Shown here: piece by piece, positions 8,026 through 50,587 of the stretch | Position numbering within the stretch: position 1 is the stretch's first letter | How the letters are laid out: each line of letters opens with the position of its first letter | Assembly (NCBI GenBank): GCA_023228995.1 | Contig: JALOAD010000001.1 | Span: 84,603 to 148,602 of the forward strand | Source of the DNA: Candidatus Muiribacterium halophilum | GTDB taxonomy: Bacteria; Muiribacteriota; Muiribacteriia; Muiribacteriales; Muiribacteriaceae | Direction: 5' to 3' | DNA: 64,000 bases | Translations under genes and position numbers: made by a program | Notes under the pieces: model-generated | Seen by the model: the letters and a program-made list of their open reading frames with translations, nothing else | Databases searched by the model: none | Told to the model about the DNA's origin: nothing

Positions 8026-8116
8026 AAAAACAATAGAATCCCGTGAATTGAGGTCAAACCCGCAGAGGCTGTTGATTTATTCAGAATCATGCAGGGATGA
8101 CAAAAATAAAGATAGT

Positions 8117-8524
8117 TTAAAGATTTAACTCAATATTATTCAATCCGTTTTCATAAAATTCATCCATATATTTTTTAAATATATTTTTGAATTCATCTAC
8201 CTGATCAGAATTCATCTTGTCTGAAAAATAAAGATTGTGTTTGTTTATTATATCTCTTTCAGATAATCTTCGTCCAAGTTGTTCCCAAAATATATTATCA
8301 ACAAACTTTTCTTTGAAATCTTTTATTTCCAATAGTGTATTGAGTTCATCTTGTCTTGATCTAAAGCCTTTTTCTTCAAGAGCTTTAATTACTTTTAATT
8401 CCAGTTCTTTTAAATTATCATCTTTCTCAAACACTGTAAGACATGGCTCATTAAATTTTTCATTACCAAGATGTATTAATTTTAAAAGTAGTTTATATTC
8501 TTTTTCTGACAAGTTTAGTGCCAT
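8117..8524 (-). CDS. Small predicted all-helical hypothetical protein (135 aa)
   Basis: Open frame overlapping the upstream gene by 32 nt (translational coupling). Lys/Glu-rich helical composition, no recognised motif. Confidence 0.5.
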   Translation of the reverse strand: MALNLSEKEYKLLLKLIHLGNEKFNEPCLTVFEKDDNLKELELKVIKALEEKGFRSRQDELNTLLEIKDFKEKFVDNIFWEQLGRRLSERDIINKHNLYFSDKMNSDQVDEFKNIFKKYMDEFYENGLNNIELNL

Positions 8525-8873
8525 GTTTTATCTTCCTCTCTTTTCTTGCAAAAAATACATCACCCGGAACCCAACCTCTTTCTCCAATAGCATTTTTACA
8601 ATAATACCACGAAGATGATTTTTCAAGAATTGCTAATTTTTCTCCAGTTTTAATATCAAGTTCTCCTGAATAATAATCTTTTTTTATTTTAACATGAAAA
8701 TCTTCGCCAAATTCAATATAATCAATAGGTACCCATGCTCTTTTACCGTTTTCTTTAACACACCATCTAAATCCTGGCCAAGGAGATTTCTTTTTTGTAT
8801 ATATACAAATCTCATCTTGCTCGTAAAAAATATTTTCATCTGTTGACTTTCTATAGTCTTTTAATGCTATCAT
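8493..8873 (-). CDS. Small cytoplasmic protein with two tandem SH3-like domains (126 aa)
   Basis: Two consecutive segments fit the SH3 pattern (ALxDY...E.xF..GD.I.....WW....GxxGxVPxxYV): ALKDYRKSTDENIFYEQDEICIY...WPGFRWCVKENGKRAWVPIDYIE and KIKKDYYSGELDIKTGEKLAILEKSSSWYYCKNAIGERGWVPGDVF. It starts 4 nt after the STAND gene stop. Confidence 0.55.
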   Translation of the reverse strand: MIALKDYRKSTDENIFYEQDEICIYTKKKSPWPGFRWCVKENGKRAWVPIDYIEFGEDFHVKIKKDYYSGELDIKTGEKLAILEKSSSWYYCKNAIGERGWVPGDVFFARKERKIKHGTKLVRKRI

Positions 8874-8877
8874 TCTT

Positions 8878-28877: not shown

Positions 28878-30359
28878 CTAATAATCAAAATCAAAATCTT
28901 TTATTGGTATATATTCTTCATAAGATTGATAAACTCCAGCTTTAATAAAATTATCAACCCACCAAAAAATATCATACTTTTTTATTGAATTTCTCATTTT
29001 TTTCATTTTTTTTCTTTTTATTTTATAATCCATTTTGTAAGCTTCATAAATTGTATCTGCTGTTTTTTCAACATCAAAAGGATTAACTAACAAACATTCT
29101 TTACCTAGTTGAGCAGAAGCACCAGCAAATTCAGATAAAATAACAATACCTGTTTCTTCAATATTAGCTGCACAAAATTCTTTTACAACTAGATTCATTC
29201 CATCTTTTAATGGTGTAACCAGAGCTATTTCTGAAGTTCTATAATAAGCTAGCAATTCTTCTCTTTTTAATGAACGAAATATATAATATATTGGAACCCA
29301 TCCTAATTCTGTAAATCTACCGTTTATTTCTCCAACCATTCTCTCGATATTATCTTTAAGTTCTTTATATTTTGGTATATAAACTCTTGATGGAACTAAA
29401 ATCTGTACTAATGAGACTTTTTTTTGCATATCAGGATATTTTTCTAGTGCTCTTGCAAATGCTTTAAGCTTAAATGGTATTCCTTTTGTATAATCAAGCC
29501 TATCTATTCCTAATATTAGTTTTCTATTTGGTAAATTTTCATGCAAAAACCACGCTCTTTCTGCAACATTTGCACTATCTGCTCCATCTTTAAAAGCTTC
29601 ATAATCTATACTTATTGGAAAAGAACCAACCAGAACATCTCTGCTTTGACTTTTAATAAATACAAGATTTTCTCTTCCTCTTGCCTGTACTTTGTTTCTT
29701 AGAATTCTTCTAACACATTGTAGAAAATTTCTTTTATCTCTTGGAGTCTGAAATCCTATAAGATCATATTCTAAAAGGCTTTCAAGTATTTTTTTTCGCC
29801 AAGGTAATTTACTAAATATATCTAATGATGGAAATGGTATATGTAGAAAAAATCCAATTCTATTATTATAACCTTTTTGTCTTAATTCACTTGCTACATT
29901 AAGTAAATGATAGTCATGAACCCATATAAAATCATCTTTTATTATTTTTGACATTATTTTATTTGAAATTTTTTTATTTACGCTTAAATAAGTTTCCCAA
30001 TATTTATCTTTAAAATTACATAGTGATATTAAATCATGAAAAAGTGGCCATATTATCTCATTTGAAAAACCTTCATAGTAATTATCTCTTTCTTTTTTTG
30101 TTAAAATAATCGGTTCAAGTTCATAACCACTATCTTTAACACCTTTTGAAATAAGTTCTCCAAGGTTCTGCTCTGTTATGCCATCTTCTTCAATTATTCC
30201 AGGCCACCCTATCCAAACACCGCCTCGATTTTTTAAAACTGGTGCCATTGCAGTAACAAGTCCGCCTTTACCAGCAGAAATAGAAAAACTACCATCTTTT
30301 TTTTTGTCTATTACAACTGGCAATCGATTGGATACAATAATCAATCTTCCTTCAGACAT
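28878..30359 (-). CDS. otsA: Alpha,alpha-trehalose-phosphate synthase (GT20)
   Basis: RLIIVSNRLPV start, WVHDYHL, GT20 conservation over 493 aa. Confidence 0.9.
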   Translation of the reverse strand: MSEGRLIIVSNRLPVVIDKKKDGSFSISAGKGGLVTAMAPVLKNRGGVWIGWPGIIEEDGITEQNLGELISKGVKDSGYELEPIILTKKERDNYYEGFSNEIIWPLFHDLISLCNFKDKYWETYLSVNKKISNKIMSKIIKDDFIWVHDYHLLNVASELRQKGYNNRIGFFLHIPFPSLDIFSKLPWRKKILESLLEYDLIGFQTPRDKRNFLQCVRRILRNKVQARGRENLVFIKSQSRDVLVGSFPISIDYEAFKDGADSANVAERAWFLHENLPNRKLILGIDRLDYTKGIPFKLKAFARALEKYPDMQKKVSLVQILVPSRVYIPKYKELKDNIERMVGEINGRFTELGWVPIYYIFRSLKREELLAYYRTSEIALVTPLKDGMNLVVKEFCAANIEETGIVILSEFAGASAQLGKECLLVNPFDVEKTADTIYEAYKMDYKIKRKKMKKMRNSIKKYDIFWWVDNFIKAGVYQSYEEYIPIKDFDFDY

Positions 30360-31153
30360 TTTTCCTCCAAAAACTCATTTTTTAAAACTCTGTAAAATTC
30401 CTGATGAGAATTTATCCATATATCCGCATAAGTATTTCTGAAAGTATCTTTTATCAAAAAACTAATTCCTGAACCTTTCACTTCTAAAAAAGCATCTTCA
30501 TCAGTTATATCATCTCCAAAATACACTGGAAAACAATTTTTATTTTCTTTAATTATCTGTGAAACTGCATAACCTTTATTAAAAGATGGAATAATAAATT
30601 CATATCCACCATCAAATTCAAGAATTTTGATATTATTGAATTTATTTAATATCTGTTTTTTTAATCTTTCAATATTTTCTCTGATATTTTGTGGAATTTC
30701 TCTATAATGCAAAGCTATTGAACTAACCTTTTTTTCAGTATGTTCAACGATTTTATCAAGTTCAAGATAATCCCAGATTTTTTGTAATAAAACTTTATTT
30801 TGAGGATTAAGATTTAAATAATCACCATTAGATTTAAGAACTTCATTACCATGACTTCCCCATATACATGGAGGAAAATCAAGACAATACAAAAGTTTTT
30901 TTAGTGAATCAACTGTCCTGCCTGTAATAAAATATATTTTGTATTTTTTAGCAAGTTTATTTATTAAATCAGCAAATCCTTCATACATAAAAGCTTTTTC
31001 TCTATCTTTTACAAACGGAGCAAGCGTACCATCATAATCAAATAAAAGTATTTTATCTTTATTAATTAAAACCTTTTGATAATCTTTATAATCAAAAATG
31101 TCTTTATTCAAAAATTCCATAATCCCAGTTTTATCCTTGTTTTTACTAATCAT
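30341..31153 (-). CDS. otsB: Trehalose-6-phosphate phosphatase (HAD-IIB)
   Basis: HAD motif I LLFDYDGTL. Overlaps otsA start. Confidence 0.8.
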   Translation of the reverse strand: MISKNKDKTGIMEFLNKDIFDYKDYQKVLINKDKILLFDYDGTLAPFVKDREKAFMYEGFADLINKLAKKYKIYFITGRTVDSLKKLLYCLDFPPCIWGSHGNEVLKSNGDYLNLNPQNKVLLQKIWDYLELDKIVEHTEKKVSSIALHYREIPQNIRENIERLKKQILNKFNNIKILEFDGGYEFIIPSFNKGYAVSQIIKENKNCFPVYFGDDITDEDAFLEVKGSGISFLIKDTFRNTYADIWINSHQEFYRVLKNEFLEEKCLKED

Positions 31154-31266
31154 TAATTAGATGCAAATCATCGCTAATTAGCAATTTATTGCGTTAATTG
31201 CTTTCAATCTTCAACTCTTTAACCCATTAACCCTTTAACCATCTCACTATCTCACTATCTCACTTT

Positions 31267-32535
31267 TCACAACTCTATTCTATCTTTATCTTGATAATGA
31301 ATTGCAGCAAGCATTAAAGTAAGATATTCTCTCAAATGTCTTGTTATAAGAAAGTTTTCTCTTACAAATTCTTTTGCATTTTTGCCAATTTCAAGCATTC
31401 TTTTTTTATGATTAAAAAGATATCTAATTCTCAAAGCAGCACCTTCAGGTGTATTTACAAGATATCCAGTATGATGATTAATAACTTGAAGTCTTATTCC
31501 ACCAGTATCACCACCAATCATTGGTTTTCCTTTCCACATTCCCTCGGTTACCGTTAACCCAAAACCTTCTTTAACTGATTTTTGCAAAATTATATCTGAA
31601 CCTCTCTGAATTGCATTTATAGTTCTATGAGCATCTGCCGGAAGAAGAAGTATTTTAATGTCAGAATCTCCATAAGCAGCTTCTCTAACTTCGTTTAGTA
31701 CAGCTTCACCTTCAGGATCATCTGTTGCACCACCACCTGCAAGGACAAGTTGAAGGTCAGGAGTAAATTTTTTGACAATTTTATAAGCTTTAATAACTCC
31801 AATAGGATCTTTGAATCTATCAAATCTTGAAATCTGCGACATAATAGGTCTTGAAAGATCAATTCCATAACTAATACAAGTTTGCTTTACTTCTTTAATG
31901 TCAAGATCAATGTTTTTTTCACTTAAAGGATCTATACTTGGAAGTATAAGATATTGAGTGTGTGGCAATTTTTGAGCATAATCAGCTAAAGAAAAAACAC
32001 TAGCATCATAATCTGCTACTTTATTTTTGATATAATTCCATAAAGGTCTATATGGTTTACTAACATCAATATGGCATCTCCAAATCCATTTTCCTTTTCT
32101 TTCTGGAATATATTTCAAAAGCATAGCTGGTTGCGGATCATGAATAAAAACAACATCAGCATCTTTGAGACTATTTCTTAATTTATCAGCGTTTTCCTCA
32201 TTTGTTTTTTCATAAATATCAAGAAGCTTTTTATTCATACTAACAACATTTCCTTGTAATCCATTATGAAAATTTTTAGTACAATTATAAAATTCTTGTT
32301 CTCCTGTAACAACTTCCCATTTTGTATTAATACCTAATTCTTCTTTTAAAGGTATAAGTTTATGCAGAATTTCAGCAACACCTCCGCCAACTTTTGTAGA
32401 ATTAACATGAACTACATTTATACCTTTTAATGGAGCAGCAAGCTGATAAAGAGAATCTATAATAGGATTTCCAACTATATCTCTATAAAGATCAAGTTTA
32501 TTCATTAATTTTACCTCCTTTAAAAAAATCATCAA
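31267..32535 (-). CDS. GT4-family glycosyltransferase, TreT (trehalose glycosyltransferring synthase)-like
   Basis: N-terminal GT4_4-like region (VVHVNSTKVGGGVAEIL) and C-terminal GT1 region with the EGFGLTVTEGMWKGKP (E-x7-E) motif. Lies in the trehalose cluster. Confidence 0.55.
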   Translation of the reverse strand: MMIFLKEVKLMNKLDLYRDIVGNPIIDSLYQLAAPLKGINVVHVNSTKVGGGVAEILHKLIPLKEELGINTKWEVVTGEQEFYNCTKNFHNGLQGNVVSMNKKLLDIYEKTNEENADKLRNSLKDADVVFIHDPQPAMLLKYIPERKGKWIWRCHIDVSKPYRPLWNYIKNKVADYDASVFSLADYAQKLPHTQYLILPSIDPLSEKNIDLDIKEVKQTCISYGIDLSRPIMSQISRFDRFKDPIGVIKAYKIVKKFTPDLQLVLAGGGATDDPEGEAVLNEVREAAYGDSDIKILLLPADAHRTINAIQRGSDIILQKSVKEGFGLTVTEGMWKGKPMIGGDTGGIRLQVINHHTGYLVNTPEGAALRIRYLFNHKKRMLEIGKNAKEFVRENFLITRHLREYLTLMLAAIHYQDKDRIEL

Positions 32536-33172
32536 ATATATTGACTAATTGTTCTTTAAGTGTGTTTAATGATACAAAATAAGGATCAAGAGATGATATT
32601 TTATCGCATATTGGATTATATTTTCCATCAAGCCCCATAAGCCATTGTCTAAAATCATCAACATTATCTTTAGTTCTTCTTCTTGCATCAATAAAATGAT
32701 AAAATATAGAGCTTGTTGACATTTCTTTGATTACTTCAGAAAACTTTGAAGGATCTTTTAATGCAATATTCGTATCAAAAACAACAATATGAGATTTTTT
32801 AAAATGAAATTTATTTTGCGGTCTAACAAAATTAATCCATTCATCCTCATCTAATCTCTCTTGAATAGTATCAACTAATTCATTTCTTAATTCATCAAGT
32901 AAACCAAAATCTGTAGGATCAACAACAGATAATCTTTCTGCAAGTATTGAATCATGCAGAGAACTTTTTACCCATAAAGCAAATTCGTTATTATATTCAC
33001 TATCCATAAATCTTGGTTTTAACAACATACCCCAAAAATGATAATAAATACTACCTTGATCAATATTTTGAATAATATCTTTTAACTCTCTTAGGTTATG
33101 AGCTTTTTTCCCTGTAGCAATAGCAACAAGAGCACAATCTTTGACATTGAATGCTGGGGTTTCTTTAATCAT
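32498..33172 (-). CDS. Hypothetical protein (224 aa), first gene of the trehalose cluster
   Basis: Open frame overlapping the GT4 start. No recognised motif. Confidence 0.4.
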   Translation of the reverse strand: MIKETPAFNVKDCALVAIATGKKAHNLRELKDIIQNIDQGSIYYHFWGMLLKPRFMDSEYNNEFALWVKSSLHDSILAERLSVVDPTDFGLLDELRNELVDTIQERLDEDEWINFVRPQNKFHFKKSHIVVFDTNIALKDPSKFSEVIKEMSTSSIFYHFIDARRRTKDNVDDFRQWLMGLDGKYNPICDKISSLDPYFVSLNTLKEQLVNIFDDFFKGGKINE

Positions 33173-36562: not shown

Positions 36563-36664
36563 AAAACCCTCTTTATGTGTTTTAAAGTTTCTATACCGAT
36601 TTTATACGTTTTTATACGCTTCACATAATGCTTCTTAAATTATTATAACATAAATTGTTTTACT

Positions 36665-39600
36665 TCAAAACAATTGTTGATTTTCTAATTTTTCTGTTCT
36701 AAATATTGATTTTTCAAGATTTTCATCCAAAGATATATTTTCAGAGTTTTTTATTTGTCTATCAATTTTCAAATATTCATCTTTTTCAAAAGTGCTTTTT
36801 TTAATTTTAAGCATATAAATTAGATTAAAACAGTTAAATATTGAATTTTGTTTAAGATCAGATAAACATATAAGCTGAGTATTAAATTTTTTGGCAATTT
36901 CAAATAAAGGAATAAGAAGATGTTGACTTGATATTGGACCGAATGGATTGTCCATTATAAGTATTCTTGAATCTTTTCCTGCTAAATTCTCAGAATTATT
37001 TATCATAGTATTATTTCTTATATATGCCATTAAAGCTGATATAACTGCAAAAAATACTACAAATTTTTCACCACCAGAATTTTCACTTATTGCACTTTCC
37101 CATTTTTTCCAACGATTATTTGCTGTATTAAGATCAATTTTATAAACACTTACTGGAATTGAATTTCTTCCTGAATACTGATTTATCAATTCTCTTGTAG
37201 ACATTAATCTAAAAATACTTTTATTTATTTTTTCGTTTTCATAATTTTGTCTTTTTTCTTCTCTAATATTTTGTATACAAGAATCAATATATTTTTCTAT
37301 TCTTTTTTTAGCATTTTCTTCATTATCAATATCTGTGTTTATCTTTATCATCTGAATTGGTCTGATTTTTTCTGATAATTTCACAGAAGATGATAATGCT
37401 ATTTTACCAAGTTCTTCAAATACTCTTTGAGCATGCACAAAACATTGAAATACAACATCATTTCTATTTTTTTCAACATTTTCAAGTCTTATTCTATTTA
37501 TTTCTATTAATTCACTTATTTTTATTATATAATCTTTTAATCTTTCAAAAAGATAATAATATTCATTGTATTTTTTATTTTTCCTTTCAATCATACTATC
37601 AATTGAAGTAAAAAGATTATCTATATTTTGATTTTTATGTTTAAATTCAGATCTTAATAATGAATAATTACCAATAAGCTGTTTTTCTTCATTATCCATT
37701 TGTTCTTTAAACAATTTATAATTACTTTCAAGATTTTTATAAATTATTTCAATGTTATCTTTTATATCAAATTCAATTATAGAGCTTGAAGGTAAATTTA
37801 AAATATCAATTCTTTGTTTAATTTTTTTAAATTCAGCAATTTCTTTTCTTAACTTTTTTTCAAGTAATATGTAATCTTTGCGATTTGAATTAATTGTATT
37901 TTTTCTTGCAATAAAATCTTGTTTGATATTTTCTCTTGGACAAGCTTTATCATAATCTAATCTTTCAATTTCCTTAAAAGCTTGTTCTTTCCCTCTATTT
38001 TCAGAACTTATATCTTTATCAACTATATTATAATCAGATATAATAGAATTTAGTTTATTATTTTGTAAATAGATATCAATTTCTGTTTTTTCTTCAATTT
38101 CTATGTTATATTCAATGTTATTCACTTCTTCTTCGTTAAATTTAAATCTTGAAAGTTCTTTTGTAAATTCTGATATTTCATTAATTGATTTTTCTTTTAA
38201 GATTATTAATGCTGAAAAATCTTTTGAATATTCTTTTTTCAAATTCTCATATATACTTAAAAGTTCTTCAATATTTTCTTTGAGTATTTCAGATTTTTCT
38301 TGAGCATTTGAGAATTTTAATTTATATTTTTCACATTCTGTTAATTTATTTTTTATAATTTCAATATTTTTATTTAATCCTGAAATTTCATTATTTATTT
38401 TTATAATTTCATTTTCATTTAATAAAATATCTTTATTGAGTTTTTCTATTGTTTTTTGAAGATTTTTTCTTTTTTCTAATATTCTGACATATTCTGAATC
38501 TTTCACTATAAATTCATTGAAATCATGTAATTTGACATTTAATAAATTGAGTTTATTTTGTTTTTCATTTAATTTATTTATATTATTCCTGATATTTATT
38601 TCTGCATTTTTATTTTCATTATTTAAAATTTCAATTTTTTTTTCTATTTCATTAGTTTTTTGTAATAAATCTCTTTCATTTTTTTCAGCTTGATATAAAA
38701 AATCCTCTTTATAATCAAATTCTTGAAGAATTCTAAAATCATTTGATGCAATATTATAAGAATTAGCAATATCCTTATATATATTTTCAAGAGATTTTTT
38801 TTCATTTTCTTTTTCATTAAGAAATTTTTCAGTTTTATCAATTTCAAATATTCGTTTTTCAACATTAACAATAAAATTCAAATCTTCATTGATTTTAATA
38901 AATACATTATTGTTTTCAAAATCAACATTTGTATTTTCATAAAAAAATAAAGGAATTGAACTTTTAATAAATTTATCTTTAAATACATCTTTAACTTTAT
39001 TAATTTGATCTTTTTTTAATATAATTGAATAAGCAAGAAGAGGATTTTTTTCAAGTAAAGAATTTCTATTATCTTTTTTTTGATTTTTAATAAAATTCTC
39101 ACCAGTTTCAAATTCAATATTATTATTAATCAAAATATCAATTATATTTTGATCTATATGAAGAGAATTTTGTTTAATTCCTTTAATAATATTTTCAATT
39201 AATTTTATATCAGAAGAAAGTTCTTTTTTTCTATTATCATAATCAATAAGAATATTTTTAAATTCAAATTCAATATGTTTTTTATCAAAAATTCTTTGTT
39301 TTTTTAATTCATATTTTTTTAATATTTCATAAGATTTATCTCTTTTATCTGTGAATAATGCAATTTCATCTATTTTTTTTTGATAAAGTAAAATATTATC
39401 TCTAACTTTATTAGAAAAGTCTTTGATTAAATCAGAATTATTTTGCAATTTATTTTCTAATTTTAAATTTTGCTCATTTATTTGTAAAATCTCATTATTA
39501 TGATTTGCAATTTTATTTTCAATTTCACTTATAAATAAATTAAACTCATCTATATCAATCTGCCCAAGAATATTTCTTAATATTTTAACATTATTATTTT

Positions 39601-41074
39601 TTTCAAAATCCAATTGATATTTTTCAAATATAATAGCTTTTTCATTTACAGAACCAAGACTAATATTAGAAGAATTAATTGTTTTTTTAAATTCTTTTTG
39701 TTTAATTAAAATTTCTTCAAGATTTTGCTTTGAAATTTGTTTATTATTTTCAATATTTTTATATTGATTTTGTAAATTTACAATTCTTTCATCAAACTTT
39801 ATTTTTAGAGAATATTCAATATGAGATAATCTTTCTTGTATATTGGAATTTTTTTCAAGACTTAAAATTTTTTCATTATAACCTTTTAAATCATTTTCAC
39901 AATTGATTTTTTTATCATAAATCTTTTTAAATCGAAGTTTTTCAAGAAATATATTAAGTTTTTTTATATTATCTTTTAAAATATTAATCTTTTCTAATAA
40001 TGTGATTTTTCTTTTTTCCAAAATTTCAAGCTTATCAACAGAATTATAATAATCAAGACTTCTTTCTTCATAATCAATATTTTTAAGAGAATATTCAGCT
40101 TGAATTAAAAATTTAGAAATATCATTTTCCTCTTTTTCAAGTTGTTCTATTTTATCACTTAAAATATTTTCAATATATTTAATTTTCTTTTCAGTATTTT
40201 CTTTATTTTCAATAATTGCAGTAAAAATCTCAATATCTTTTGAAAAATCCTCAAGTTTTTCTGAAAAATTCTGCAAAAGCTCTTTTTCAATAAGAAATTC
40301 CTCATTTCTAATTATTTCATCAACAAGATTAGACATCATTTGTCCAAGATGCCCAGCTTGATTTTTATCTTTATAGAAAACCTTTAATATTGTTTTATTT
40401 AAAAACCATTCATTAATCAATTGATCTGAATTTTTACATTTTTGAAAAATCTCATCAAGACCACCTTCACTATCATTTATACCAATGATTATATTTTTCC
40501 ATTCATCCTGAGAAATTCCATATTCAGATAAATGCTCTCTATATTCTTCCATATTTTCCTGAGAAAATATCCTAAAATCCATTGAAGATTTTTTAGCTCT
40601 TTCATCAGCAAATTCTCTAGCTTTTTTATAATTCATAACATTAATAACATTTCCTTTCCTAGCAGAAAAACCAATATTACTAATATCATAAGAATTTGAC
40701 TGTGAATATTTTGATGTAAACATAAAAAATCTAAGCCTTGAGTTTTTTTCTCCATCCATTCCATGAAACTCATGATTTTCACAAACAATACCTGTTAAAA
40801 GATAATCAGAAGAATAATCAAGTTTCCATTCTATCATTATAAAACAAGGTAATTTAGAAGTTTTAAAAAAATCAGCAAATTTTCTACCTTGAATCTTTGC
40901 CCCAGGTACAATTGGTTGAAGCATAACTTGAACAAGAACACTCTTTCCTCCACCATTTGCAAGACTTAAAAGAGCATTTTCACCTTTATAAAAATCAAAC
41001 ATTTCATCAGTAATATGTCTTGTAAAATTATTATATGAAAAATTAAGAACTCTTATTCGATTGATTTTAGGCAT
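36665..41074 (-). CDS. jetC: Wadjet JetC / MksB-like SMC-family ABC ATPase (1469 aa)
   Basis: N-terminal Walker A LANGGGKSVLVQV. Very long coiled-coil middle. C-terminal signature NSGGEKF and Walker B ILIMDNPFG. Last gene of the jetDABC operon. Confidence 0.75.
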   Translation of the reverse strand: MPKINRIRVLNFSYNNFTRHITDEMFDFYKGENALLSLANGGGKSVLVQVMLQPIVPGAKIQGRKFADFFKTSKLPCFIMIEWKLDYSSDYLLTGIVCENHEFHGMDGEKNSRLRFFMFTSKYSQSNSYDISNIGFSARKGNVINVMNYKKAREFADERAKKSSMDFRIFSQENMEEYREHLSEYGISQDEWKNIIIGINDSEGGLDEIFQKCKNSDQLINEWFLNKTILKVFYKDKNQAGHLGQMMSNLVDEIIRNEEFLIEKELLQNFSEKLEDFSKDIEIFTAIIENKENTEKKIKYIENILSDKIEQLEKEENDISKFLIQAEYSLKNIDYEERSLDYYNSVDKLEILEKRKITLLEKINILKDNIKKLNIFLEKLRFKKIYDKKINCENDLKGYNEKILSLEKNSNIQERLSHIEYSLKIKFDERIVNLQNQYKNIENNKQISKQNLEEILIKQKEFKKTINSSNISLGSVNEKAIIFEKYQLDFEKNNNVKILRNILGQIDIDEFNLFISEIENKIANHNNEILQINEQNLKLENKLQNNSDLIKDFSNKVRDNILLYQKKIDEIALFTDKRDKSYEILKKYELKKQRIFDKKHIEFEFKNILIDYDNRKKELSSDIKLIENIIKGIKQNSLHIDQNIIDILINNNIEFETGENFIKNQKKDNRNSLLEKNPLLAYSIILKKDQINKVKDVFKDKFIKSSIPLFFYENTNVDFENNNVFIKINEDLNFIVNVEKRIFEIDKTEKFLNEKENEKKSLENIYKDIANSYNIASNDFRILQEFDYKEDFLYQAEKNERDLLQKTNEIEKKIEILNNENKNAEINIRNNINKLNEKQNKLNLLNVKLHDFNEFIVKDSEYVRILEKRKNLQKTIEKLNKDILLNENEIIKINNEISGLNKNIEIIKNKLTECEKYKLKFSNAQEKSEILKENIEELLSIYENLKKEYSKDFSALIILKEKSINEISEFTKELSRFKFNEEEVNNIEYNIEIEEKTEIDIYLQNNKLNSIISDYNIVDKDISSENRGKEQAFKEIERLDYDKACPRENIKQDFIARKNTINSNRKDYILLEKKLRKEIAEFKKIKQRIDILNLPSSSIIEFDIKDNIEIIYKNLESNYKLFKEQMDNEEKQLIGNYSLLRSEFKHKNQNIDNLFTSIDSMIERKNKKYNEYYYLFERLKDYIIKISELIEINRIRLENVEKNRNDVVFQCFVHAQRVFEELGKIALSSSVKLSEKIRPIQMIKINTDIDNEENAKKRIEKYIDSCIQNIREEKRQNYENEKINKSIFRLMSTRELINQYSGRNSIPVSVYKIDLNTANNRWKKWESAISENSGGEKFVVFFAVISALMAYIRNNTMINNSENLAGKDSRILIMDNPFGPISSQHLLIPLFEIAKKFNTQLICLSDLKQNSIFNCFNLIYMLKIKKSTFEKDEYLKIDRQIKNSENISLDENLEKSIFRTEKLENQQLF

Positions 41075-41766
41075 TATATTGCATCCTCAAATATTTCTCT
41101 AATATCTTTAACTCTATCCTGATCAAGATAATAATTTATCATTATATCATCAAGCTTAGATGTAGATCTAATTTCTCTATTATCATCAAGTATAATAATA
41201 AGATCTTCTTTTTGCATAAATCTTGCAGCTTTAATAACAGTATAAGTTTTAGTTTTTCTTGAATTTTCATCATATCCTTGTTTTGAATCCCATTCTTGAG
41301 CTATTTTTATAAAATTAATACTATATTTTTCTTCCATTTTTTCATAATCTTCCGAATTTGAAAGAATACGAATAAATCTTTCATCAAGTTTTTCAACAAT
41401 TTCATGAATTCTAATAAAATCTCTTTGTTTTGGATTACGATTTTTACCACCATAAAAAATATGAAGAATAAACATAGATATATACGAATTAAGAAATACA
41501 TCAACAAGTCTTGCATCACTTCCTAACCATTCTCTCATATTTTTAGAAGTCCATCCCAAAAGATCATTTGAAGAATTCGGGATAATATAAGCTATATGAG
41601 AAAGTTCAACAATATCAAATTCAAAAACTTCTTCAAAATCATATAGAATAGTTCTAATATCAGGATTTTTAAATTCAATAAATAATTCAAGATCATTATC
41701 CTTAGATAATTCACCTTTTTTTAGAAGTATTCTAAATATATTAAGAGCTGTTTTTAATTCACTCAT
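41074..41766 (-). CDS. jetB: Wadjet JetB / MksE-like (DUF4194-type) subunit
   Basis: 230-aa acidic helical protein between the kleisin-like and SMC-like genes. 1-nt and 4-nt start/stop overlaps. Confidence 0.55.
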   Translation of the reverse strand: MSELKTALNIFRILLKKGELSKDNDLELFIEFKNPDIRTILYDFEEVFEFDIVELSHIAYIIPNSSNDLLGWTSKNMREWLGSDARLVDVFLNSYISMFILHIFYGGKNRNPKQRDFIRIHEIVEKLDERFIRILSNSEDYEKMEEKYSINFIKIAQEWDSKQGYDENSRKTKTYTVIKAARFMQKEDLIIILDDNREIRSTSKLDDIMINYYLDQDRVKDIREIFEDAI

Positions 41767-43376
41767 ATTTGAACCTCAATAAGAAAATCAGACAATATTA
41801 TTTTTTTATTAATATTTAAATTATTTTCAGATATTGTATATTCACATTCAAAATTCACATTGTCATCCTTTGATATTTTAATACTAATAACATTATAAAT
41901 ATCAGGATTTTCATCCTCAATAGCATATAAACAAACATTAGCATCAAACTCGCCAGATATATCAGCAATAATATTTTCTCTTTCTTTCTTCCAAGCTATA
42001 ATATCAAGCAATCCAATATCATAAAGCTTTAACATTGTTCTAAATATTCTTTCTTCACTTGTAAAAACATCAATATTTTCATATTTTTCATTAAGAAAAC
42101 TAAAAAAATCAGAAAATCTAAATTTATTAAACTCTTTTCCATAAATCATAATATTTTTCACAATATCAATATAAGCATTTGTTCTTTCTTTTTCAAGAAA
42201 AATAATACTTTCATCATTTTCAGTTAAATTTTCCACAATATCAGAAAAATTAGCAAATTCTTTTTCCCTAAGCTTGTATTGTCTTTCATATAATTTAATT
42301 AAATTAAGTATATTTTTAATATCTGGTTTAAAAATTGGATTAAAAAGTTTCCATAAACAACAATATTTATCCTCAGATAATTTTTCCATAACACAAAGAA
42401 TTTCATCTTCAATATCAAATCTTCTATTAATTGTTTTTGAAAAAGAATCTCCAATTGTGTCAATATATATTTTAGATAAATTATGCCTATTTATAATCAA
42501 TTCTCTCTGTTCAGAAACAGTTCTATCAATGTTTTTTAGAATTTCAGCAATATCATTTTTAGCTTTTCTAATTTCCACATTATCACTATCAGAATTTTCA
42601 TCTTTAAACAAATTAAATTCAGATAATTTCACAGTTTTATGAATATCATCCATAACTTTATACTCATCTTCAAGAAGAGCATAAGTACCCTTGATAATAA
42701 TTTCATACTCAGCAACATCAACTGAATAAATATTTTCACGAAGTTTTTCAAGAAATCTTAAAATCTCTGATTTTTTTTGCCTAACCATTTGAACAAGACT
42801 TCTGCTTTGCAATACAGCTTTTTTGTAATTTTTACGCTTAATAAGTTCTTTAAGTTTTAATTCTTCAATAGTAAAACTAATTTCATCATCAACTTCCTTT
42901 GTCCTAAAAAGAAAATCATAACCTTGATCAGTAAGTCTATAAATAACTTTATAACTTTTTTCAGTATAAATAACTTTATCATCAATAAGTTTAACCCTAT
43001 ATTTAATTTTTCCAGCAGAATAATCCATAATATCAAAAAATCTTGGTTTACCACCATTTTGAAGAATATCCTTAACAAGATATTCAGCCAAAATTAAATT
43101 ATCAATATCAATTTCACCATAAAAAGGAAGAATTAAACCAAGAAAATCCGCAATATTATTAATACTACATTCATTATCTTCTGAAAGAGTTTTTTCCATT
43201 ATAAAAACAAGAAGAGAAAAAAGAATATTTTCCAAATCACCTGAATTAAAACGATTTTCAATATCCATTTTACGCTCTCTGCGATTAACAATAGAATCAA
43301 CAGCCCCAGAAACCTGCATTCTTTTATAAAAACCCTCAAGATATTCAGGATATTTAGCAATCACAATTTTCTCCAA
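41763..43376 (-). CDS. jetA: Wadjet JetA / MksF-like kleisin-type subunit (DUF3375-type)
   Basis: 537 aa. Position and size fit jetA. Helical with winged-helix-like segments. Confidence 0.55.
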   Translation of the reverse strand: MEKIVIAKYPEYLEGFYKRMQVSGAVDSIVNRRERKMDIENRFNSGDLENILFSLLVFIMEKTLSEDNECSINNIADFLGLILPFYGEIDIDNLILAEYLVKDILQNGGKPRFFDIMDYSAGKIKYRVKLIDDKVIYTEKSYKVIYRLTDQGYDFLFRTKEVDDEISFTIEELKLKELIKRKNYKKAVLQSRSLVQMVRQKKSEILRFLEKLRENIYSVDVAEYEIIIKGTYALLEDEYKVMDDIHKTVKLSEFNLFKDENSDSDNVEIRKAKNDIAEILKNIDRTVSEQRELIINRHNLSKIYIDTIGDSFSKTINRRFDIEDEILCVMEKLSEDKYCCLWKLFNPIFKPDIKNILNLIKLYERQYKLREKEFANFSDIVENLTENDESIIFLEKERTNAYIDIVKNIMIYGKEFNKFRFSDFFSFLNEKYENIDVFTSEERIFRTMLKLYDIGLLDIIAWKKERENIIADISGEFDANVCLYAIEDENPDIYNVISIKISKDDNVNFECEYTISENNLNINKKIILSDFLIEVQI

Positions 43377-44418
43377 GAAATTTCATAAAAACCTCATAAT
43401 TAACAATTTCTTGCGGAATATACAACTTAGAATTAAGAATAAATTTAATATTATTTTGAATTTCAAAGTTAAAATAATCTAAAAAAACATCAATATCAAT
43501 ATTTTTCTTCCTTAAAGAAAAACATTTAGGCAAATTAATATTATAAGATAATTTTATCATTAATTCGTATAATCGCATAAACGGATATACCAAACATTCA
43601 GAATTATTACTCAAAATCCTCATAAAAATATCAACACCCTCAAAATCCAAATCACCAAAATATAAAAAATCAACTTTATCAGCAATATTATTTTCTAAAA
43701 TATACAATCTATAATAATCAAGAGCATTTTTTCTTGTAATTTTATTACCCTCACCGTAAATCAAAACATCAATATAAAGACCAAAAATCAAATTCTCACC
43801 TTTATTTTGAATAGCTTTTTTCAAAGAAAACCAAGTATCTTTATTTTCAATAACAAGAATTTTCATATCTTTATTTTTCCCACAAACATATTCAAAAAAC
43901 GGTTCATAAGTATCAAAAAAATTAAGAAAATTCAATTCAAGCTTATTAAATTTAAAAACCTGTTCTAAAAGAGATAAATTTTTTTCAATAAATTTTTCAT
44001 AAAGAAATATTTCAAAAGATCTTTCATTTCTTGAAATCTTCAATTTAGGAATACAATTATTTTGCCATAAATAATCAGAAATAGGTTCTAAAACACATTT
44101 ATGAATATTATATTTTTGAGGATATTTAAGATATTTTTCAATACAAAAAACAGGATTCAACCTTCTAATTTCTTCAAAAACAACATTATTATAAGGTTTA
44201 TCAGCAACAATTCTATATCTATTAAATAAAGGAAATTTAATATTACCATCAGTATTAGAAGCTTTTATCCTACAAATAATATTTTCATTTTCAAGAATTG
44301 AAATTTTTTGAAAAAGTTCACAATTCTGTTTTTCGTCAATAATAACAGCAATTTCTTTAAGAGTAATTGTCTTTTTTTTATATTTTTGTAATTTTTTCCT
44401 AATCAAATTTATATTCAA
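43354..44418 (-). CDS. jetD: Wadjet JetD / MksG-like nuclease subunit (C-terminal Toprim, DUF2220-type)
   Basis: Toprim acidic motifs ILVIENKDTW (Glu) and LYFGDLDFEGVDIF (DxD) about 54 aa apart in the C-terminal half. First gene of the operon, as in mksGFEB. Confidence 0.65.
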   Translation of the reverse strand: MNINLIRKKLQKYKKKTITLKEIAVIIDEKQNCELFQKISILENENIICRIKASNTDGNIKFPLFNRYRIVADKPYNNVVFEEIRRLNPVFCIEKYLKYPQKYNIHKCVLEPISDYLWQNNCIPKLKISRNERSFEIFLYEKFIEKNLSLLEQVFKFNKLELNFLNFFDTYEPFFEYVCGKNKDMKILVIENKDTWFSLKKAIQNKGENLIFGLYIDVLIYGEGNKITRKNALDYYRLYILENNIADKVDFLYFGDLDFEGVDIFMRILSNNSECLVYPFMRLYELMIKLSYNINLPKCFSLRKKNIDIDVFLDYFNFEIQNNIKFILNSKLYIPQEIVNYEVFMKFLGENCDC

Positions 44419-44450
44419 AACAAAAACCCCTAAATTTAATTTCCCCGATT

Positions 44451-45302
44451 TTATACCGATTTTAAAGCTATTTCCCTAAATCCTTCTCCTACCATTTTTT
44501 GTCTATATTCTCTAGTTGACCTAATATCACTAATTGGTTTTGATTCTTCACTCACCATATTTGCAACTTTTTCAATAAGTTCAGGAGAAAGTTTCTGACC
44601 TTTTAACATTTGTTCAGCTTTTTCACATCTCAAAGCCCTTACTGCAACTGCTCCAATAGCTATTTTTGCTTTTTTAATTGTAATTTCATCATTTTCATAT
44701 TCAAATACTACTGCTGTTGAACATTTCTGAATTGAAACTTCAGGTCTTTGAGCAAATTTTCTATAAGCTTGATAATTTTTTGAATTAATTATAGGAATTT
44801 CAAGTTTTTCAATTATTTCACCAGTTTCTAAAGCAGTTTGACAAACTCCTTTTGGAAAATCTTTTAATTCAATTATTTTTCTGTTATTTTCTGAAACTAT
44901 ATGGATTTTTGCATCAAGTGCCATTAAAATCGGCATTGAATCAGAAACAGGAGAACAATTCGCTAAATTTCCACCCAAAGTTGCTTGATTTCTAATCTGT
45001 AATGAACCAATTAATTCAATTGCTTGAATTAATCCAGGAAAGTTTTCTTTTACAATAGTATTTTTGATTATATCTGTAAGTTTTTCAGCAGCTCCGATAA
45101 ATATACTATTATCTTTTTTTTCAATTCCTTTAAGTTCTAGCATATCTCCAATATACAAAAGTCCAGAAGTTCGTAAATATCCTTCTTTTACTTTTATCAT
45201 AACATCAGTTCCACCAGCAAATGGAAGATAATTTTTTTTCATATAATTAAAAACATCGGTATAACCTTCAGCTTTATAAAATTCAAATTCTTTTTCTATC
45301 AT
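44451..45302 (-). CDS. Molybdo-hydroxylase FAD-binding subunit (XdhB/CoxM family)
   Basis: FAD_binding_5 motif LPFAGGTDVMIKVKEG. CO-dehydrogenase-flavoprotein C-terminal domain. Confidence 0.8.
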   Translation of the reverse strand: MIEKEFEFYKAEGYTDVFNYMKKNYLPFAGGTDVMIKVKEGYLRTSGLLYIGDMLELKGIEKKDNSIFIGAAEKLTDIIKNTIVKENFPGLIQAIELIGSLQIRNQATLGGNLANCSPVSDSMPILMALDAKIHIVSENNRKIIELKDFPKGVCQTALETGEIIEKLEIPIINSKNYQAYRKFAQRPEVSIQKCSTAVVFEYENDEITIKKAKIAIGAVAVRALRCEKAEQMLKGQKLSPELIEKVANMVSEESKPISDIRSTREYRQKMVGEGFREIALKSV

Positions 45303-49504: not shown

Positions 49505-50587
49505 TTGAAAATTTATGCCGATTTTGTCTTTATGAGAAAAAATATTTTTTTATTTTTTATTATTTTAATTCTTTTATCAAAAATTTTTGCACAAAGTGCA
49601 AAAGATCCTGTAAAGGAAACTTTTAGTTATTTTGATAAATTTGGTCTTATTCAGACTACTTCTCAACTTTATAATTCGCAATTAAATATTTCTTCTCTTG
49701 AAAAAGCTGAAATTATTATTGAAATTTGTGAAAGGCTTTTTTCAAAAGAAAAAAAAGTTCCATTAAATATGAATGTTTTACAAAATCTTAAAACTTCAAT
49801 TGAAAATTATTCTACTGAAATATTACTTACTGGAAGATTAGACCCAGATGAAGCTCTTAGAAAAATCAGACAATTTATGCTTGATAAAAGAGATATGCAA
49901 TTTGGATATCAACCTTCTCTTGAAAAAGGTATTTATGCAAAAGAATTTTTAAAAAAAGTTCAAGTATCGCAAGAAAGCAGTGATATTGATGGTAATTTTA
50001 TTGCTGTTGACCGTGAAAATATTATAAAAAGTGGTAAGATTAAAATTAAAAATATTATTGGTTTTGATTTAAATAAAAAAAGTTATTTTTCTTTAAGAGG
50101 TGGTTTTTTTGAACCAGATTCTTCTCTGCCATACATTAAATCAGATTACATTTATGGTATTAATCTAGGTTTTCATAGAACTTCAAGAATGTCATTTGAT
50201 ATAAGCTCAACTTCTTATGAAATTAACGATTCTGGTAATTTCTTTGGAAATATCAACGATAAATACAGTTTAAAAATAAATCCTATATCTTTTAGTGTTA
50301 GATATTTTTTATTTAAACTTCATAAAATTCTTCCTTATGGGGGATACGGAATATCAAAGGTTAGATTAAAACATAAACTAAACAGCATTGTAAATGAAAA
50401 AACATTTTATACTCCGCATATTCTTTATGGTGCTGAATATTTTGAAAAAGATAGATTTTCAATTTTTTCTGAGCTAAATTATTATCTTTCAAAAACTGAA
50501 AGTCTTAATATTAATGGAAAACGATATAATTTTGATATTGATAAGTTTACAATTCATTTTGGTATTAAATTTTATTTTAATGGATAA
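49505..50587 (+). CDS. Outer-membrane beta-barrel protein with N-terminal soluble domain (start possibly at 49532, MRKNIF...)
   Basis: Signal peptide (FIILILLSKIFAQS). C-terminal amphipathic beta-strand region ending in ...FTIHFGIKFYF (terminal aromatic), typical of OMP barrels. Confidence 0.5.
   Translation: MKIYADFVFMRKNIFLFFIILILLSKIFAQSAKDPVKETFSYFDKFGLIQTTSQLYNSQLNISSLEKAEIIIEICERLFSKEKKVPLNMNVLQNLKTSIENYSTEILLTGRLDPDEALRKIRQFMLDKRDMQFGYQPSLEKGIYAKEFLKKVQVSQESSDIDGNFIAVDRENIIKSGKIKIKNIIGFDLNKKSYFSLRGGFFEPDSSLPYIKSDYIYGINLGFHRTSRMSFDISSTSYEINDSGNFFGNINDKYSLKINPISFSVRYFLFKLHKILPYGGYGISKVRLKHKLNSIVNEKTFYTPHILYGAEYFEKDRFSIFSELNYYLSKTESLNINGKRYNFDIDKFTIHFGIKFYFNG

What the first reader, a model, noticed from the sequence alone, without database searches (positions are those of the whole stretch)
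36665..44418. Complete Wadjet / MksGFEB-type SMC-like anti-plasmid system in jetD-jetA-jetB-jetC order
Four overlapping minus-strand genes. The first is a 354-aa protein with Toprim E (ILVIENKD) and DxD (FGDLDFEG) motifs, matching JetD/MksG. Next come a 537-aa kleisin-sized protein (JetA), a 230-aa acidic protein (JetB), and a 1469-aa SMC-like ABC ATPase (Walker A GGGKS, signature SGGEK, Walker B ILIMDNPFG) with an exceptionally long coiled coil (JetC). The nuclease gene comes first, as in the Corynebacterium mksGFEB arrangement. JetC is about 30% longer than typical. Its Walker B is D-N rather than D-E, which may deserve attention. Wadjet is a known system, but it marks this stretch as a defence-gene-bearing chromosome.
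Basis: partly seen in the sequence, partly recalled or inferred. Interest (0 to 1): 0.6.

Follow-up and report, generated by a model that had tools for sequence, protein, structure and literature searches.

The report
Type III Wadjet anti-plasmid operon

Summary
Four overlapping minus-strand ORFs lie exactly at 36665-44418. Each is a full-length, high-scoring match to PADLOC type III Wadjet profiles: JetD3 1e-77, JetA3 3e-167, JetB3 1e-81, JetC3 4e-144.

An AlphaFold model of JetD (pLDDT 89) matches only MksG, JetD and topoisomerase VI-A among solved structures. A model of the C-terminal half of the JetC head best matches the P. aeruginosa JetC head.

- jetD-A-B-C order is the type III norm (65 of 65 complete related loci). 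It is not the Corynebacterium arrangement, which is mksFEBG with the nuclease last.
- 1469 aa is the normal type III JetC length.
- JetA, JetB and JetC do not carry the type I Pfam domains. JetB is DUF6063.

The Walker B D-N is not a lesion. DNPF is present in 237 of the 239 full-length JetC3 proteins examined, and in distant plasmid-borne systems.

In type I, the E-to-Q mutation at this position abolishes ATP hydrolysis and cleavage. Type III therefore either hydrolyses ATP differently or runs a slower cycle. I found no paper noting this.

Verdict: a new member of a known kind, with moderate-to-low interest for the locus and a modest family-level lead.

The parts
43354..44418 (-). jetD (354 aa, TTG start): type III JetD, a topoisomerase VI-A-like CAP + Toprim nuclease.
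   Evidence: PADLOC JetD3 PDLC00592, E 9.8e-78, full length. Pfam JetD_C, 25.9 bits, above the cut-off of 22. AF2 model pLDDT 89.3. The top 7 Foldseek PDB hits are all MksG 8b7f, JetD 7til or Topo VI-A.
43837..43860 (-). JetD Toprim glutamate motif ILVIENKD (E191, N192 and D194 are invariant in the family).
   Evidence: Translation. Invariant columns in the 54-sequence alignment A2. E191 follows strand 184-190 in the model.
43636..43659 (-). JetD Toprim DxD motif FGDLDFEG (G255, D256, L257, D258, E260 and G261 are invariant).
   Evidence: the motif follows strand 248-254.
41763..43376 (-). jetA (537 aa from TTG, or 533 aa from GTG at 43364): type III JetA, the presumed kleisin.
   Evidence: PADLOC JetA3 PDLC00562, E 2.6e-167, residues 10-537 against profile 6-535 of 536. 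No Pfam family matches. The kleisin fold was not tested here. hhalign against MukF was not significant.
41074..41766 (-). jetB (230 aa, pI 4.99): type III JetB, the presumed KITE subunit, Pfam DUF6063.
   Evidence: PADLOC JetB3 PDLC00576, E 1e-81. Pfam DUF6063, E 1.9e-38. pI. hhalign against MukE was not significant.
36665..41074 (-). jetC (1469 aa): type III JetC, an SMC-like ABC ATPase with long coiled-coil arms and a central hinge.
   Evidence: PADLOC JetC3 PDLC00583, E 4.4e-144, residues 1-1439 against profile 1-1447 of 1471. In the C-lobe model (pLDDT 75), the top 15 PDB hits are all SMC-family heads. The best is P. aeruginosa JetC 8dk3_B.
40940..40957 (-). JetC Walker A, NGGGKS (N40, G43 and K44 are invariant across type III subfamilies).
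40460..40480 (-). JetC INDSEGG motif (N200 and E203 are invariant across three type III subfamilies). It sits where a Q-loop would be expected, and E203 is a candidate alternative catalytic residue. This is inference only.
   Evidence: Cross-subfamily alignment of 29 sequences. Translation. No structural test was possible.
38825..39187 (-). Approximate JetC hinge region (residues about 630-750), a conserved non-coiled-coil island at mid-protein.
   Evidence: Invariant H639, T657, G658, E659, P678 and P708 in alignment A1. P678 is invariant across subfamilies. The boundaries are an estimate.
37064..37078 (-). JetC ABC signature motif, SGGEK.
   Evidence: It lies at the N-terminal end of a helix in the model, as in ABC ATPases.
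36941..36964 (-). JetC Walker B, ILIMDNPF: Asn1376 occupies the position of the canonical catalytic Glu.
   Evidence: The beta strand ends just before D1375 in the model. hhalign places D1375-N1376 on MukB D1406-E1407, a weak match at E 0.023. DNPF is present in 120 of 120 and 117 of 119 homologues. N1376 is invariant across subfamilies.
36851..36883 (-). JetC strand TQLICL followed by S1405-D1406 at the place of the H-loop (switch) histidine. The position is Asp in 45 of 47 relatives and His in 2 of 47.
   Evidence: C. perfringens has 'YTH' and Bacillaceae have 'PPE' at this place.
44452..44464 (.). Upstream copy of an exact 13-nt direct repeat, TATACCGATTTTA. It overlaps the stop codon of the preceding xdh-family gene and lies 34 nt before the jetD start.
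36592..36604 (.). Downstream copy of the same 13-nt repeat, 61 nt after the jetC stop codon. Together the two copies bracket the cassette.
   Evidence: Shuffles of the two flanks gave p about 0.0015-0.0025.

Best explanation
The four genes are a complete, apparently functional type III Wadjet (JetABCD) operon in the chromosome of Candidatus Muirbacterium halophilum.

By analogy with the characterised type I and type II systems, the likely mechanism is as follows:
- JetC dimerises through its hinge.
- JetC is bridged at its ATPase heads by the kleisin JetA, which carries a JetB (KITE) dimer.
- The JetABC motor loads on DNA and uses ATP to reel it in.
- Only a small circular molecule can be extruded completely.
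- The stalled complex then licenses the Toprim nuclease JetD to cut the DNA. Plasmids are destroyed while the chromosome is spared.

Shown here: the identity and completeness of the four components, the Topo VI-A/Toprim fold and intact metal-binding motifs of JetD, and the SMC-type head of JetC.

Inferred: complex formation, loop extrusion, size sensing and cleavage. No type III system has been reconstituted according to the papers I could read.

One step cannot be transferred without reservation. JetC-III has Asn in place of the Walker B catalytic Glu. Its ATP hydrolysis must therefore rely on another residue (the invariant E203 in the INDSEGG motif is my candidate), or it must be intrinsically slow.
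For: - Full-length PADLOC type III hits for all four proteins.
- Pfam JetD_C above threshold and DUF6063 for JetB.
- JetD AF2 model at pLDDT 89.3. All seven Foldseek PDB hits with E <= 1e-3 are MksG, JetD or Topo VI-A.
- Invariant E191, D256, D258 and E260 in JetD.
- JetC C-lobe model: the top 15 PDB hits are all JetC, SMC or Rad50 heads, and the best is type I JetC.
- Walker A, signature and Walker B Asp are all conserved.
- The same D-A-B-C operon occurs in 65 of 65 complete related loci and on B. mycoides and C. perfringens megaplasmids. NCBI names the first gene there as JetD-domain and the third as DUF6063.
- The cassette is found at the same site in four independent metagenome samples of this species, with all ORFs intact.
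- Gene overlaps of 23, 4 and 1 nt suggest a single co-translated operon.
- Mechanistic model and type classification from PMC10586767, bioRxiv 10.1101/2025.03.10.642339 and bioRxiv 10.1101/2022.10.04.510915.
Against: - There is no experimental evidence for this locus or, in the papers I could read, for the biochemistry of any type III system. These systems are described as 'largely uncharacterized'.
- JetC lacks the Walker B Glu. The E-to-Q mutation of that residue abolishes ATP hydrolysis and cleavage in type I. The H-loop His is also replaced by Asp.
- The kleisin and KITE folds of JetA and JetB were not tested. hhalign against MukF and MukE was not significant.
- Sequence searches with JetC and JetD found no solved structure of a relative. 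JetA and JetB were not searched.
- The JetC head evidence rests on a half-domain model of moderate confidence. None of its PDB hits has E <= 1e-3.
- The window's JetD differs from the family at 44 of 137 strongly conserved columns. No catalytic motif residue is among the differences.
Confidence: 0.9

Rival explanations
1. This is a housekeeping MukBEF/MksBEF-type condensin that organises the chromosome, with no role in defence.
For: JetC is an SMC-like ATPase with MukB-like arm length, and it is encoded with kleisin-sized and KITE-sized partners. The flanks are housekeeping genes. The cassette is fixed at one site in four samples of the species.
Against: The operon begins with a Toprim/Topo VI-A-like nuclease gene, which is the signature of Wadjet and is absent from MukBEF/MksBEF (PMC12287153). 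All best profile hits are defence-type JetA3, B3, C3 and D3. No gene flanking the cassette in the window has a homologue in the flanks of the 79 related loci, so the cassette travels as an independent module (control). Its phyletic distribution is patchy. Nearly all relatives are Bacillota, with single Muiribacteriota and Spirochaetia MAGs.
Confidence: 0.04
2. This is a decayed or inactive remnant. The D-N Walker B and the missing H-loop His mean the ATPase is dead and the operon no longer works.
For: Asn replaces the catalytic Glu and Asp replaces the switch His. The equivalent E-to-Q mutant of type I is inactive. The window also has Q at position 1384, where 44 of 47 relatives have E.
Against: The D-N-P-F motif is under strong conservation. 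It is present in 120 of 120 and 117 of 119 homologues, and N1376 is one of only 27 positions invariant across three subfamilies that share about 23% identity. That pattern indicates a selected feature, not decay. All four ORFs are intact and identical products recur in four independent samples. Secondary sources report that all three Wadjet types were defined and tested in B. subtilis (PMC10586767, PMC10123090).
Confidence: 0.04
3. This is a different SMC-like or Rad50-like defence or repair system (Lamassu, SbcCD, a DndD-type phosphorothioation partner) that PADLOC mislabels as Wadjet.
For: JetC3 shows no detectable sequence similarity to type I or II JetC profiles or to DUF3584. Its only Pfam hit is SbcC/Rad50-like Walker B, below threshold. 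Divergent Walker B motifs are typical of Lamassu LmuB.
Against: No PADLOC hit to any Lamassu, Dnd or other family for any of the four proteins at E <= 0.1. The nuclease partner folds like MksG and JetD, not like SbcD or LmuA. The best structural match of the JetC C-lobe is type I JetC. The four-gene architecture with kleisin-sized and KITE-sized middle genes matches Wadjet.
Confidence: 0.02

Closest known systems
Type III Wadjet (JetABCD-III; PADLOC JetA3/B3/C3/D3; representative operon from Bacillus thuringiensis cited in bioRxiv 10.1101/2025.03.10.642339)
   Same: All four proteins match the type III profiles over their full length. The gene order is jetD-A-B-C. JetC is about 1470 aa. JetB is DUF6063. 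The Walker B is DNPF. The same features occur in B. mycoides, C. perfringens and N. vireti type III loci.
   Different: The host phylum is Muiribacteriota, whereas nearly all relatives are Bacillota. The closest listed JetC from a different organism is only 41-42% identical, and the closest such JetD is 51% identical. The window has Q1384 where 44 of 47 relatives have E, and many conservative I/K/N-type substitutions in this 25% GC genome.
Type I Wadjet (E. coli JetABCD, P. aeruginosa JetABCD, C. glutamicum MksBEFG / mksFEBG)
   Same: Both have four components: SMC-like ATPase, kleisin, KITE and Toprim nuclease. The JetD fold matches MksG 8b7f and JetD 7til. The JetC C-lobe best matches P. aeruginosa JetC 8dk3. 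The presumed extrusion-then-cleavage logic is shared.
   Different: In type I the nuclease gene comes last (jetABCD, mksFEBG). JetC is about 1100 aa (MksB is 1111 aa). The Walker B is D-E, and the EQ mutant is dead. Type I carries Pfam DUF3375, DUF4194 and DUF3584, which do not match here. The type I hinge has a channel, whereas the type III hinge is reported to lack one (PMC12647877).
Type II Wadjet (Neobacillus vireti nvJET-II)
   Same: JetC has long coiled coils and a channel-less hinge. It cleaves circular DNA in a manner dependent on ATP and on JetABCD. The authors expect the same mechanism to extend to type III.
   Different: JetB in type II is a 388-aa tandem KITE. Here it is a 230-aa single unit. 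No PADLOC type II profile matches at E <= 0.1.
MukBEF (E. coli chromosomal condensin)
   Same: MukBEF has an SMC-like ATPase of about 1486 aa with long arms, and a kleisin plus KITE architecture. A weak profile alignment places JetC-III 'LIMDN...TQLICL' on MukB 'LFLDE...MQLIIA'.
   Different: MukBEF has no nuclease subunit. MukB has D-E. No significant sequence similarity was found for JetA against MukF or JetB against MukE.
Lamassu LmuB (SMC/Rad50-like defence ATPase)
   Same: LmuB is a defence-associated SMC-like ATPase that naturally lacks the canonical Walker B Glu (hhhhD[Q/S/T/E] or hhhhDD). It is thought to hydrolyse ATP slowly. This is a precedent for a Glu-less sensor ATPase.
   Different: LmuB is about 650 aa with a zinc hook. 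It has different partners (LmuA, LmuC) and senses DNA ends rather than extruding circles. There are no profile hits here.

Membership tests
Wadjet (JetABCD), type III | JetD: a Toprim/Topo VI-A-like nuclease subunit encoded in the operon | tested here: met
   PADLOC JetD3, E 9.8e-78. Pfam JetD_C above its cut-off. AF2 model pLDDT 89.3, and the top PDB folds are MksG, JetD and Topo VI-A only. The Toprim residues E191 and D256xD258 are invariant.
Wadjet (JetABCD), type III | JetC: an SMC-like ABC ATPase with Walker A, signature motif and Walker B, split by long coiled coils and a hinge | tested here: met
   PADLOC JetC3, E 4.4e-144, full length. The motifs are located and conserved. The C-lobe model has ABC topology, and its best PDB hits are JetC, SMC and Rad50 heads, although none has E <= 1e-3. 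The N-lobe and hinge folds were not modelled.
Wadjet (JetABCD), type III | JetA: a kleisin subunit that bridges the JetC heads | tested here: inconclusive
   The sequence profile test is met: PADLOC JetA3, E 2.6e-167, full length. The kleisin fold and head binding were not tested. There is no Pfam hit, and hhalign against MukF gave E 0.13.
Wadjet (JetABCD), type III | JetB: a KITE (tandem winged-helix) subunit | tested here: inconclusive
   The sequence profile test is met: PADLOC JetB3, E 1e-81, and Pfam DUF6063, E 1.9e-38. The winged-helix fold was not tested. hhalign against MukE gave E 0.022 with 2% probability.
Wadjet (JetABCD), type III | Type-specific operon organisation (types were defined by sequence similarity and operon organisation, PMC10586767): jetD-jetA-jetB-jetC on one strand | tested here: met
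   The window has this order with overlapping genes. The order recurs in 65 of 65 complete related loci, in B. mycoides p481 and C. perfringens pJFP838A, and in N. vireti. I could not read Doron et al. 2018 to confirm that its own figure shows this order.
Wadjet (JetABCD), type III | Function: restriction of plasmids, requiring all four genes | not testable with these tools
   Only secondary statements were available (PMC10586767 and PMC10123090). There are no data for this locus.
Wadjet type I (MksBEFG / JetABCD-I) | Pfam DUF3375 (JetA), DUF4194 (JetB) and DUF3584 (JetC) domains, with the nuclease gene last | tested here: not met
   None of these Pfam families hits at E <= 0.1. No PADLOC JetA1, B1 or C1 hits appear. 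Only weak JetD1 hits appear, at E 1e-4, confined to the Toprim region. The gene order is reversed relative to mksFEBG.
Canonical SMC/ABC ATPase catalytic site | Walker B hhhhD-E, with the Glu acting as catalytic base | tested here: not met
   The sequence is ILIMD-N. N1376 is invariant across three type III subfamilies. The register is supported by a strand that ends just before D1375 in the model, by a weak hhalign match to MukB D1406-E1407, and by a sub-threshold Pfam SbcC_Walker_B match over residues 1311-1383.
MukBEF/MksBEF condensin | A three-gene SMC-kleisin-KITE operon without a nuclease | tested here: not met
   A JetD nuclease gene opens the operon and overlaps jetA.

The most novel reading that the evidence does not exclude
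Type III Wadjet, this locus included, may run on an SMC ATPase that has dispensed with the canonical Walker B glutamate. D-N-P-F is present in 237 of the 239 full-length proteins examined, and the switch His is also replaced.

There are two possibilities:
- Catalysis has been relocated to another residue. The only other invariant acidic head residue is E203, in the Q-loop-like INDSEGG motif.
- JetC-III is a naturally 'EQ-like', slowly hydrolysing clamp. In that case it recognises plasmids differently from the fast loop-extruding type I motor.

I found no paper in the searchable library that mentions this feature.
Probability: 0.3. Interest if true: 0.6.

Novelty: new member of a known kind. 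Interest (0 to 1): 0.33.

Why it matters
For the locus itself the value is modest. It adds a correctly typed Wadjet III system to a candidate phylum (Muiribacteriota), where the public record calls JetC, and in the relatives I inspected JetA too, 'hypothetical protein'. It also suggests this organism would resist small plasmids, which matters if anyone tries to manipulate it genetically.

The wider point is that type III is the least studied Wadjet type. Here it is shown to have three consistent hallmarks: nuclease-first gene order, a JetC of about 1470 aa, and an invariant Walker B D-N in place of D-E. The E-to-Q change at that position inactivates type I, so the hallmark gives a concrete, testable question about how an SMC motor can work, or sense DNA, without the canonical catalytic base.

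Tried and rejected
1. Sequence searches of the PDB found no solved relative. I used JetC and JetD singly, and a 47-sequence JetC profile. They returned nothing or only coiled-coil noise.
2. NCBIfam returned nothing for any of the four proteins or for the JetC head halves.
Only the C-terminal 320 aa could be modelled, so no full active-site geometry and no test of E203 were possible.
4. hhalign of JetA3 and JetB3 family alignments against E. coli MukF and MukE was not significant. hhalign of the JetC head halves against MukB gave only short, weak alignments. I used these only to fix the register of the Walker A and Walker B motifs.
5. The promoter and terminator scan was uninformative in this AT-rich DNA. 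It found 110 promoter-like sites against 90 expected, and no terminator between the xdh genes and jetD or directly after jetC.
6. I looked for an 'empty site' lacking the cassette in other assemblies of the same species. All four samples carry it at the same place.
7. I tested whether flanking direct repeats are general for type III cassettes. They are not: 52 loci were tested and only one other has a long repeat.
8. Doron et al. 2018 could not be retrieved. Statements about the original definition and testing of type III therefore rest on secondary sources.
9. There are no tRNA genes and no Rfam families in the window.


Full report
**Observation.** The mechanical ORF list shows exactly four large minus-strand ORFs in 36665-44418:
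- 43354-44418: 354 aa, TTG start.
- 41763-43376: 537 aa, TTG start. A GTG four codons in gives the 533-aa product called in other assemblies.
- 41074-41766: 230 aa, pI 4.99.
- 36665-41074: 1469 aa.

They overlap by 23, 4 and 1 nt. They are ILVIENKD and FGDLDFEG in the 354-aa protein, and NGGGKS, SGGEK and ILIMDNPF in the 1469-aa protein.

**Identity.** Against PADLOC-DB, each protein's best hits are type III Wadjet models aligned over essentially the full length:
- JetD3 PDLC00592: E 9.8e-78.
- JetA3 PDLC00562: E 2.6e-167.
- JetB3 PDLC00576: E 1e-81.
- JetC3 PDLC00583: E 4.4e-144, profile length 1471.

No type II model matches any of the four proteins. Of the type I models, only JetD1 appears, as weak hits (E about 1e-4) confined to the Toprim region.

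Pfam gives JetD_C above threshold for the 354-aa protein and DUF6063 (E 1.9e-38) for the 230-aa protein. It gives nothing for the 537-aa protein. For JetC it gives only a sub-threshold SbcC/Rad50-like Walker B hit. NCBIfam gives nothing.

**Fold checks.**
- I aligned 54 JetD homologues (A2). The invariant residues include E191, N192, D194, E223, G255-D256-L257-D258, E260-G261 and P335-Q336-E337.
- The AlphaFold2 model of JetD has mean pLDDT 89.3. E191 and the DxD each sit just after a beta strand, as in Toprim domains.
- That model has the canonical ABC order. The signature motif lies at the start of a helix. ILIM forms a beta strand that ends just before D1375. A helix follows, then the strand TQLIC, then 'LSD' where the H-loop lies.
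- Its top 15 PDB matches are all SMC-family heads. The best is the P. aeruginosa type I JetC head (8dk3_B, E 6e-3, probability 1.0). E. coli JetABC, B. subtilis SMC and Rad50 follow. The E-values are modest because only half a domain was modelled.

**Source and context.**
- Exact look-ups place the window in a 172-kb contig of a Candidatus Muirbacterium halophilum MAG.
- NCBI names JetC 'hypothetical protein' (MCK9474377.1) and JetD 'DUF2220 family protein'.
- The flanks are housekeeping genes. A xanthine-dehydrogenase-family operon ends 32 nt before jetD. Downstream lie a 276-aa unknown, a YitT membrane protein and a trehalose cluster. MetRS is at 332-2254.
- The same cassette sits at the same site in four independent metagenome samples. 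No empty site was found.
- No gene flanking the cassette in the window has a homologue in the flanks of the 79 related loci (positive control). The four genes therefore behave as a self-contained module.
- The cassette GC is 21.6%, against 26.9% for the rest of the window. The coiled-coil composition explains part of this.

**Family-level comparison.**
- The closest listed JetC from a different organism is only 41-42% identical (another Muiribacteriota MAG). The other listed homologues are 29-35% identical and 1456-1529 aa long.
- A scan of GTDB species genomes confirmed 551 relatives. Nearly all are Bacillota (Desulfosporosinus, Syntrophomonas, Pelotomaculum, Proteiniclasticum and others). 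One is a Spirochaetia MAG.
- Local tblastn shows the order jetD-jetA-jetB-jetC on one strand in all 65 loci with enough upstream DNA.
- The same order occurs in distant type III systems on the B. mycoides p481 and C. perfringens pJFP838A megaplasmids. It also occurs in N. vireti. All of these are JetC3 by PADLOC.
- Nuclease-first order is therefore the type III norm.
That operon is mksFEBG (cg3106-cg3103), a type I system with the nuclease last (PMC10123090).
- The '30% longer' remark holds only against type I (MksB is 1111 aa). Published work already notes that type III tends to have long coiled coils and a channel-less hinge (PMC12647877).

**The Walker B D-N.** This is the only part with some novelty.
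- The motif DNPF is present in 120 of 120 close homologues.
- It is present in 117 of 119 proteins of a second, Bacillaceae subfamily about 23% identical to the window. One more of these has DNPL.
- It is present in the C. perfringens protein.
- In a 29-sequence alignment across subfamilies only 27 positions are invariant. They include D1375, N1376 and P1377.
- The register is supported by the model's strand, by a weak hhalign match of 'LIMDN...TQLICL' to MukB 'LFLDE...MQLIIA' (E 0.023), and by the sub-threshold Pfam SbcC_Walker_B match.
- The H-loop position is Asp in 45 of 47 relatives and His in 2 of 47. It is 'PPE' in Bacillaceae, as in MukB.
- In type I, JetC(EQ) cannot hydrolyse ATP and cannot support cleavage (bioRxiv 10.1101/2022.10.04.510915).
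- Natural loss of this Glu has a precedent in Lamassu LmuB, which is thought to hydrolyse slowly (PMC10586767, PMC12663957).
- The only other invariant acidic head residue is E203, in a Q-loop-like INDSEGG motif. I propose it as a candidate alternative catalytic residue, but I could not test this because the tools return no coordinates.
- A literature search found no paper that mentions the feature. Recent papers call type III 'largely uncharacterized'.

**Mechanism.** The best-supported explanation is the Wadjet model transferred from types I and II. JetABC loads on DNA and extrudes it using ATP. Complete extrusion is possible only on small circles, and it licenses JetD to cleave.
- Shown here: the component identities, the JetD fold and motifs, and the SMC-type JetC head.
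- Inferred: everything dynamic.
- The Glu-less Walker B is the step that may differ.

**Rivals.** All three are poorly supported.
- Housekeeping condensin: this is contradicted by the nuclease gene and by the modular, patchy distribution of the cassette.
- Decayed remnant: this is contradicted by the strong conservation of D-N and by intact ORFs in four samples.
- Mislabelled Lamassu, SbcCD or Dnd-type system: there are no profile hits, and the best fold matches are JetD/MksG and JetC.

**Verdict.** The locus is a new member of a known kind. The family-wide D-N hallmark is a modest but concrete lead.

Noticed in passing
window 36592-36604 and 44452-44464: An exact 13-nt direct repeat, TATACCGATTTTA, brackets the Wadjet cassette. 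One copy overlaps the stop codon of the upstream xdh-family gene. The other lies 61 nt after the jetC stop. These are the only exact copies in the 64-kb window, and shuffles of the two flanks gave p about 0.002. Both copies sit in short runs of roughly 11-nt repeats. A 1-mismatch copy lies upstream of the xdh operon at 49514-49525. The repeat could be an insertion scar or a regulatory motif. Flanking repeats are not general in other type III loci.
   Followed up: partly
window 7048-11439 (minus strand): A possible second defence locus. It contains an 853-aa STAND NTPase (8878-11439; NB-ARC 1.5e-7, nSTAND6 1.6e-7), two small ORFs (8117-8524 and 8493-8873), and a 325-aa SIR2-like protein (7048-8025; Pfam SIR2_2 1e-12, PADLOC ThsA SIR2 part 1.1e-14). 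The STAND protein has no PADLOC hit.
   Followed up: partly
proteins P0249-P0368 (Bacillaceae type III JetC); L082 7989-12548: In the Bacillaceae subfamily of JetC-III the Walker A reads GGGKG in 112 of 119 proteins. Gly follows the lysine where Ser or Thr normally coordinates Mg2+. This comes on top of the D-N Walker B, a SGGQK signature and 'PPE' at the H-loop place. It is a second non-canonical ATPase feature, and it is not shared by the window's protein, which has GGGKS.
   Followed up: partly
window 36665-41074, JetC residue 1384 (codon 36923-36925): The window has Gln at position 1384, in the motif 'PISSQH'. Of the 47 aligned sequences, 44 have Glu ('PISSEH') and 3, the window among them, have Gln. 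The position is not conserved in other type III subfamilies, so it is unlikely to be catalytic.
   Followed up: yes
window 28878-33172: A trehalose metabolism cluster on the minus strand: OtsA-like GT20 (28878-30359), trehalose phosphatase (30341-31153), TreT-type trehalose synthase (31267-32535) and DUF5752 (32498-33172). This fits a halophilic lifestyle.
   Followed up: no
window 44419-44450: Only 32 nt separate the stop of the xdh-family FAD-binding subunit gene (44451-45302) from the jetD TTG start. No terminator-like site lies between them. The Wadjet genes may therefore be read through from the xdh operon, or they may use a promoter inside it.
   Followed up: partly
window 2447-5536 and 16055-19045: Two large putative surface proteins: a 1029-aa protein with six DUF285 repeats plus Listeria-Bacteroides repeats, and a 996-aa leucine-rich-repeat protein.
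   Followed up: no
L082 12820-16810 (B. mycoides plasmid p481): Immediately downstream of the plasmid-borne type III Wadjet lie genes for a SLATT domain protein, a DUF2971 protein and two RES domain proteins. This looks like a defence or toxin island on a 481-kb conjugative plasmid. It is also notable that an anti-plasmid system resides on megaplasmids.
   Followed up: no
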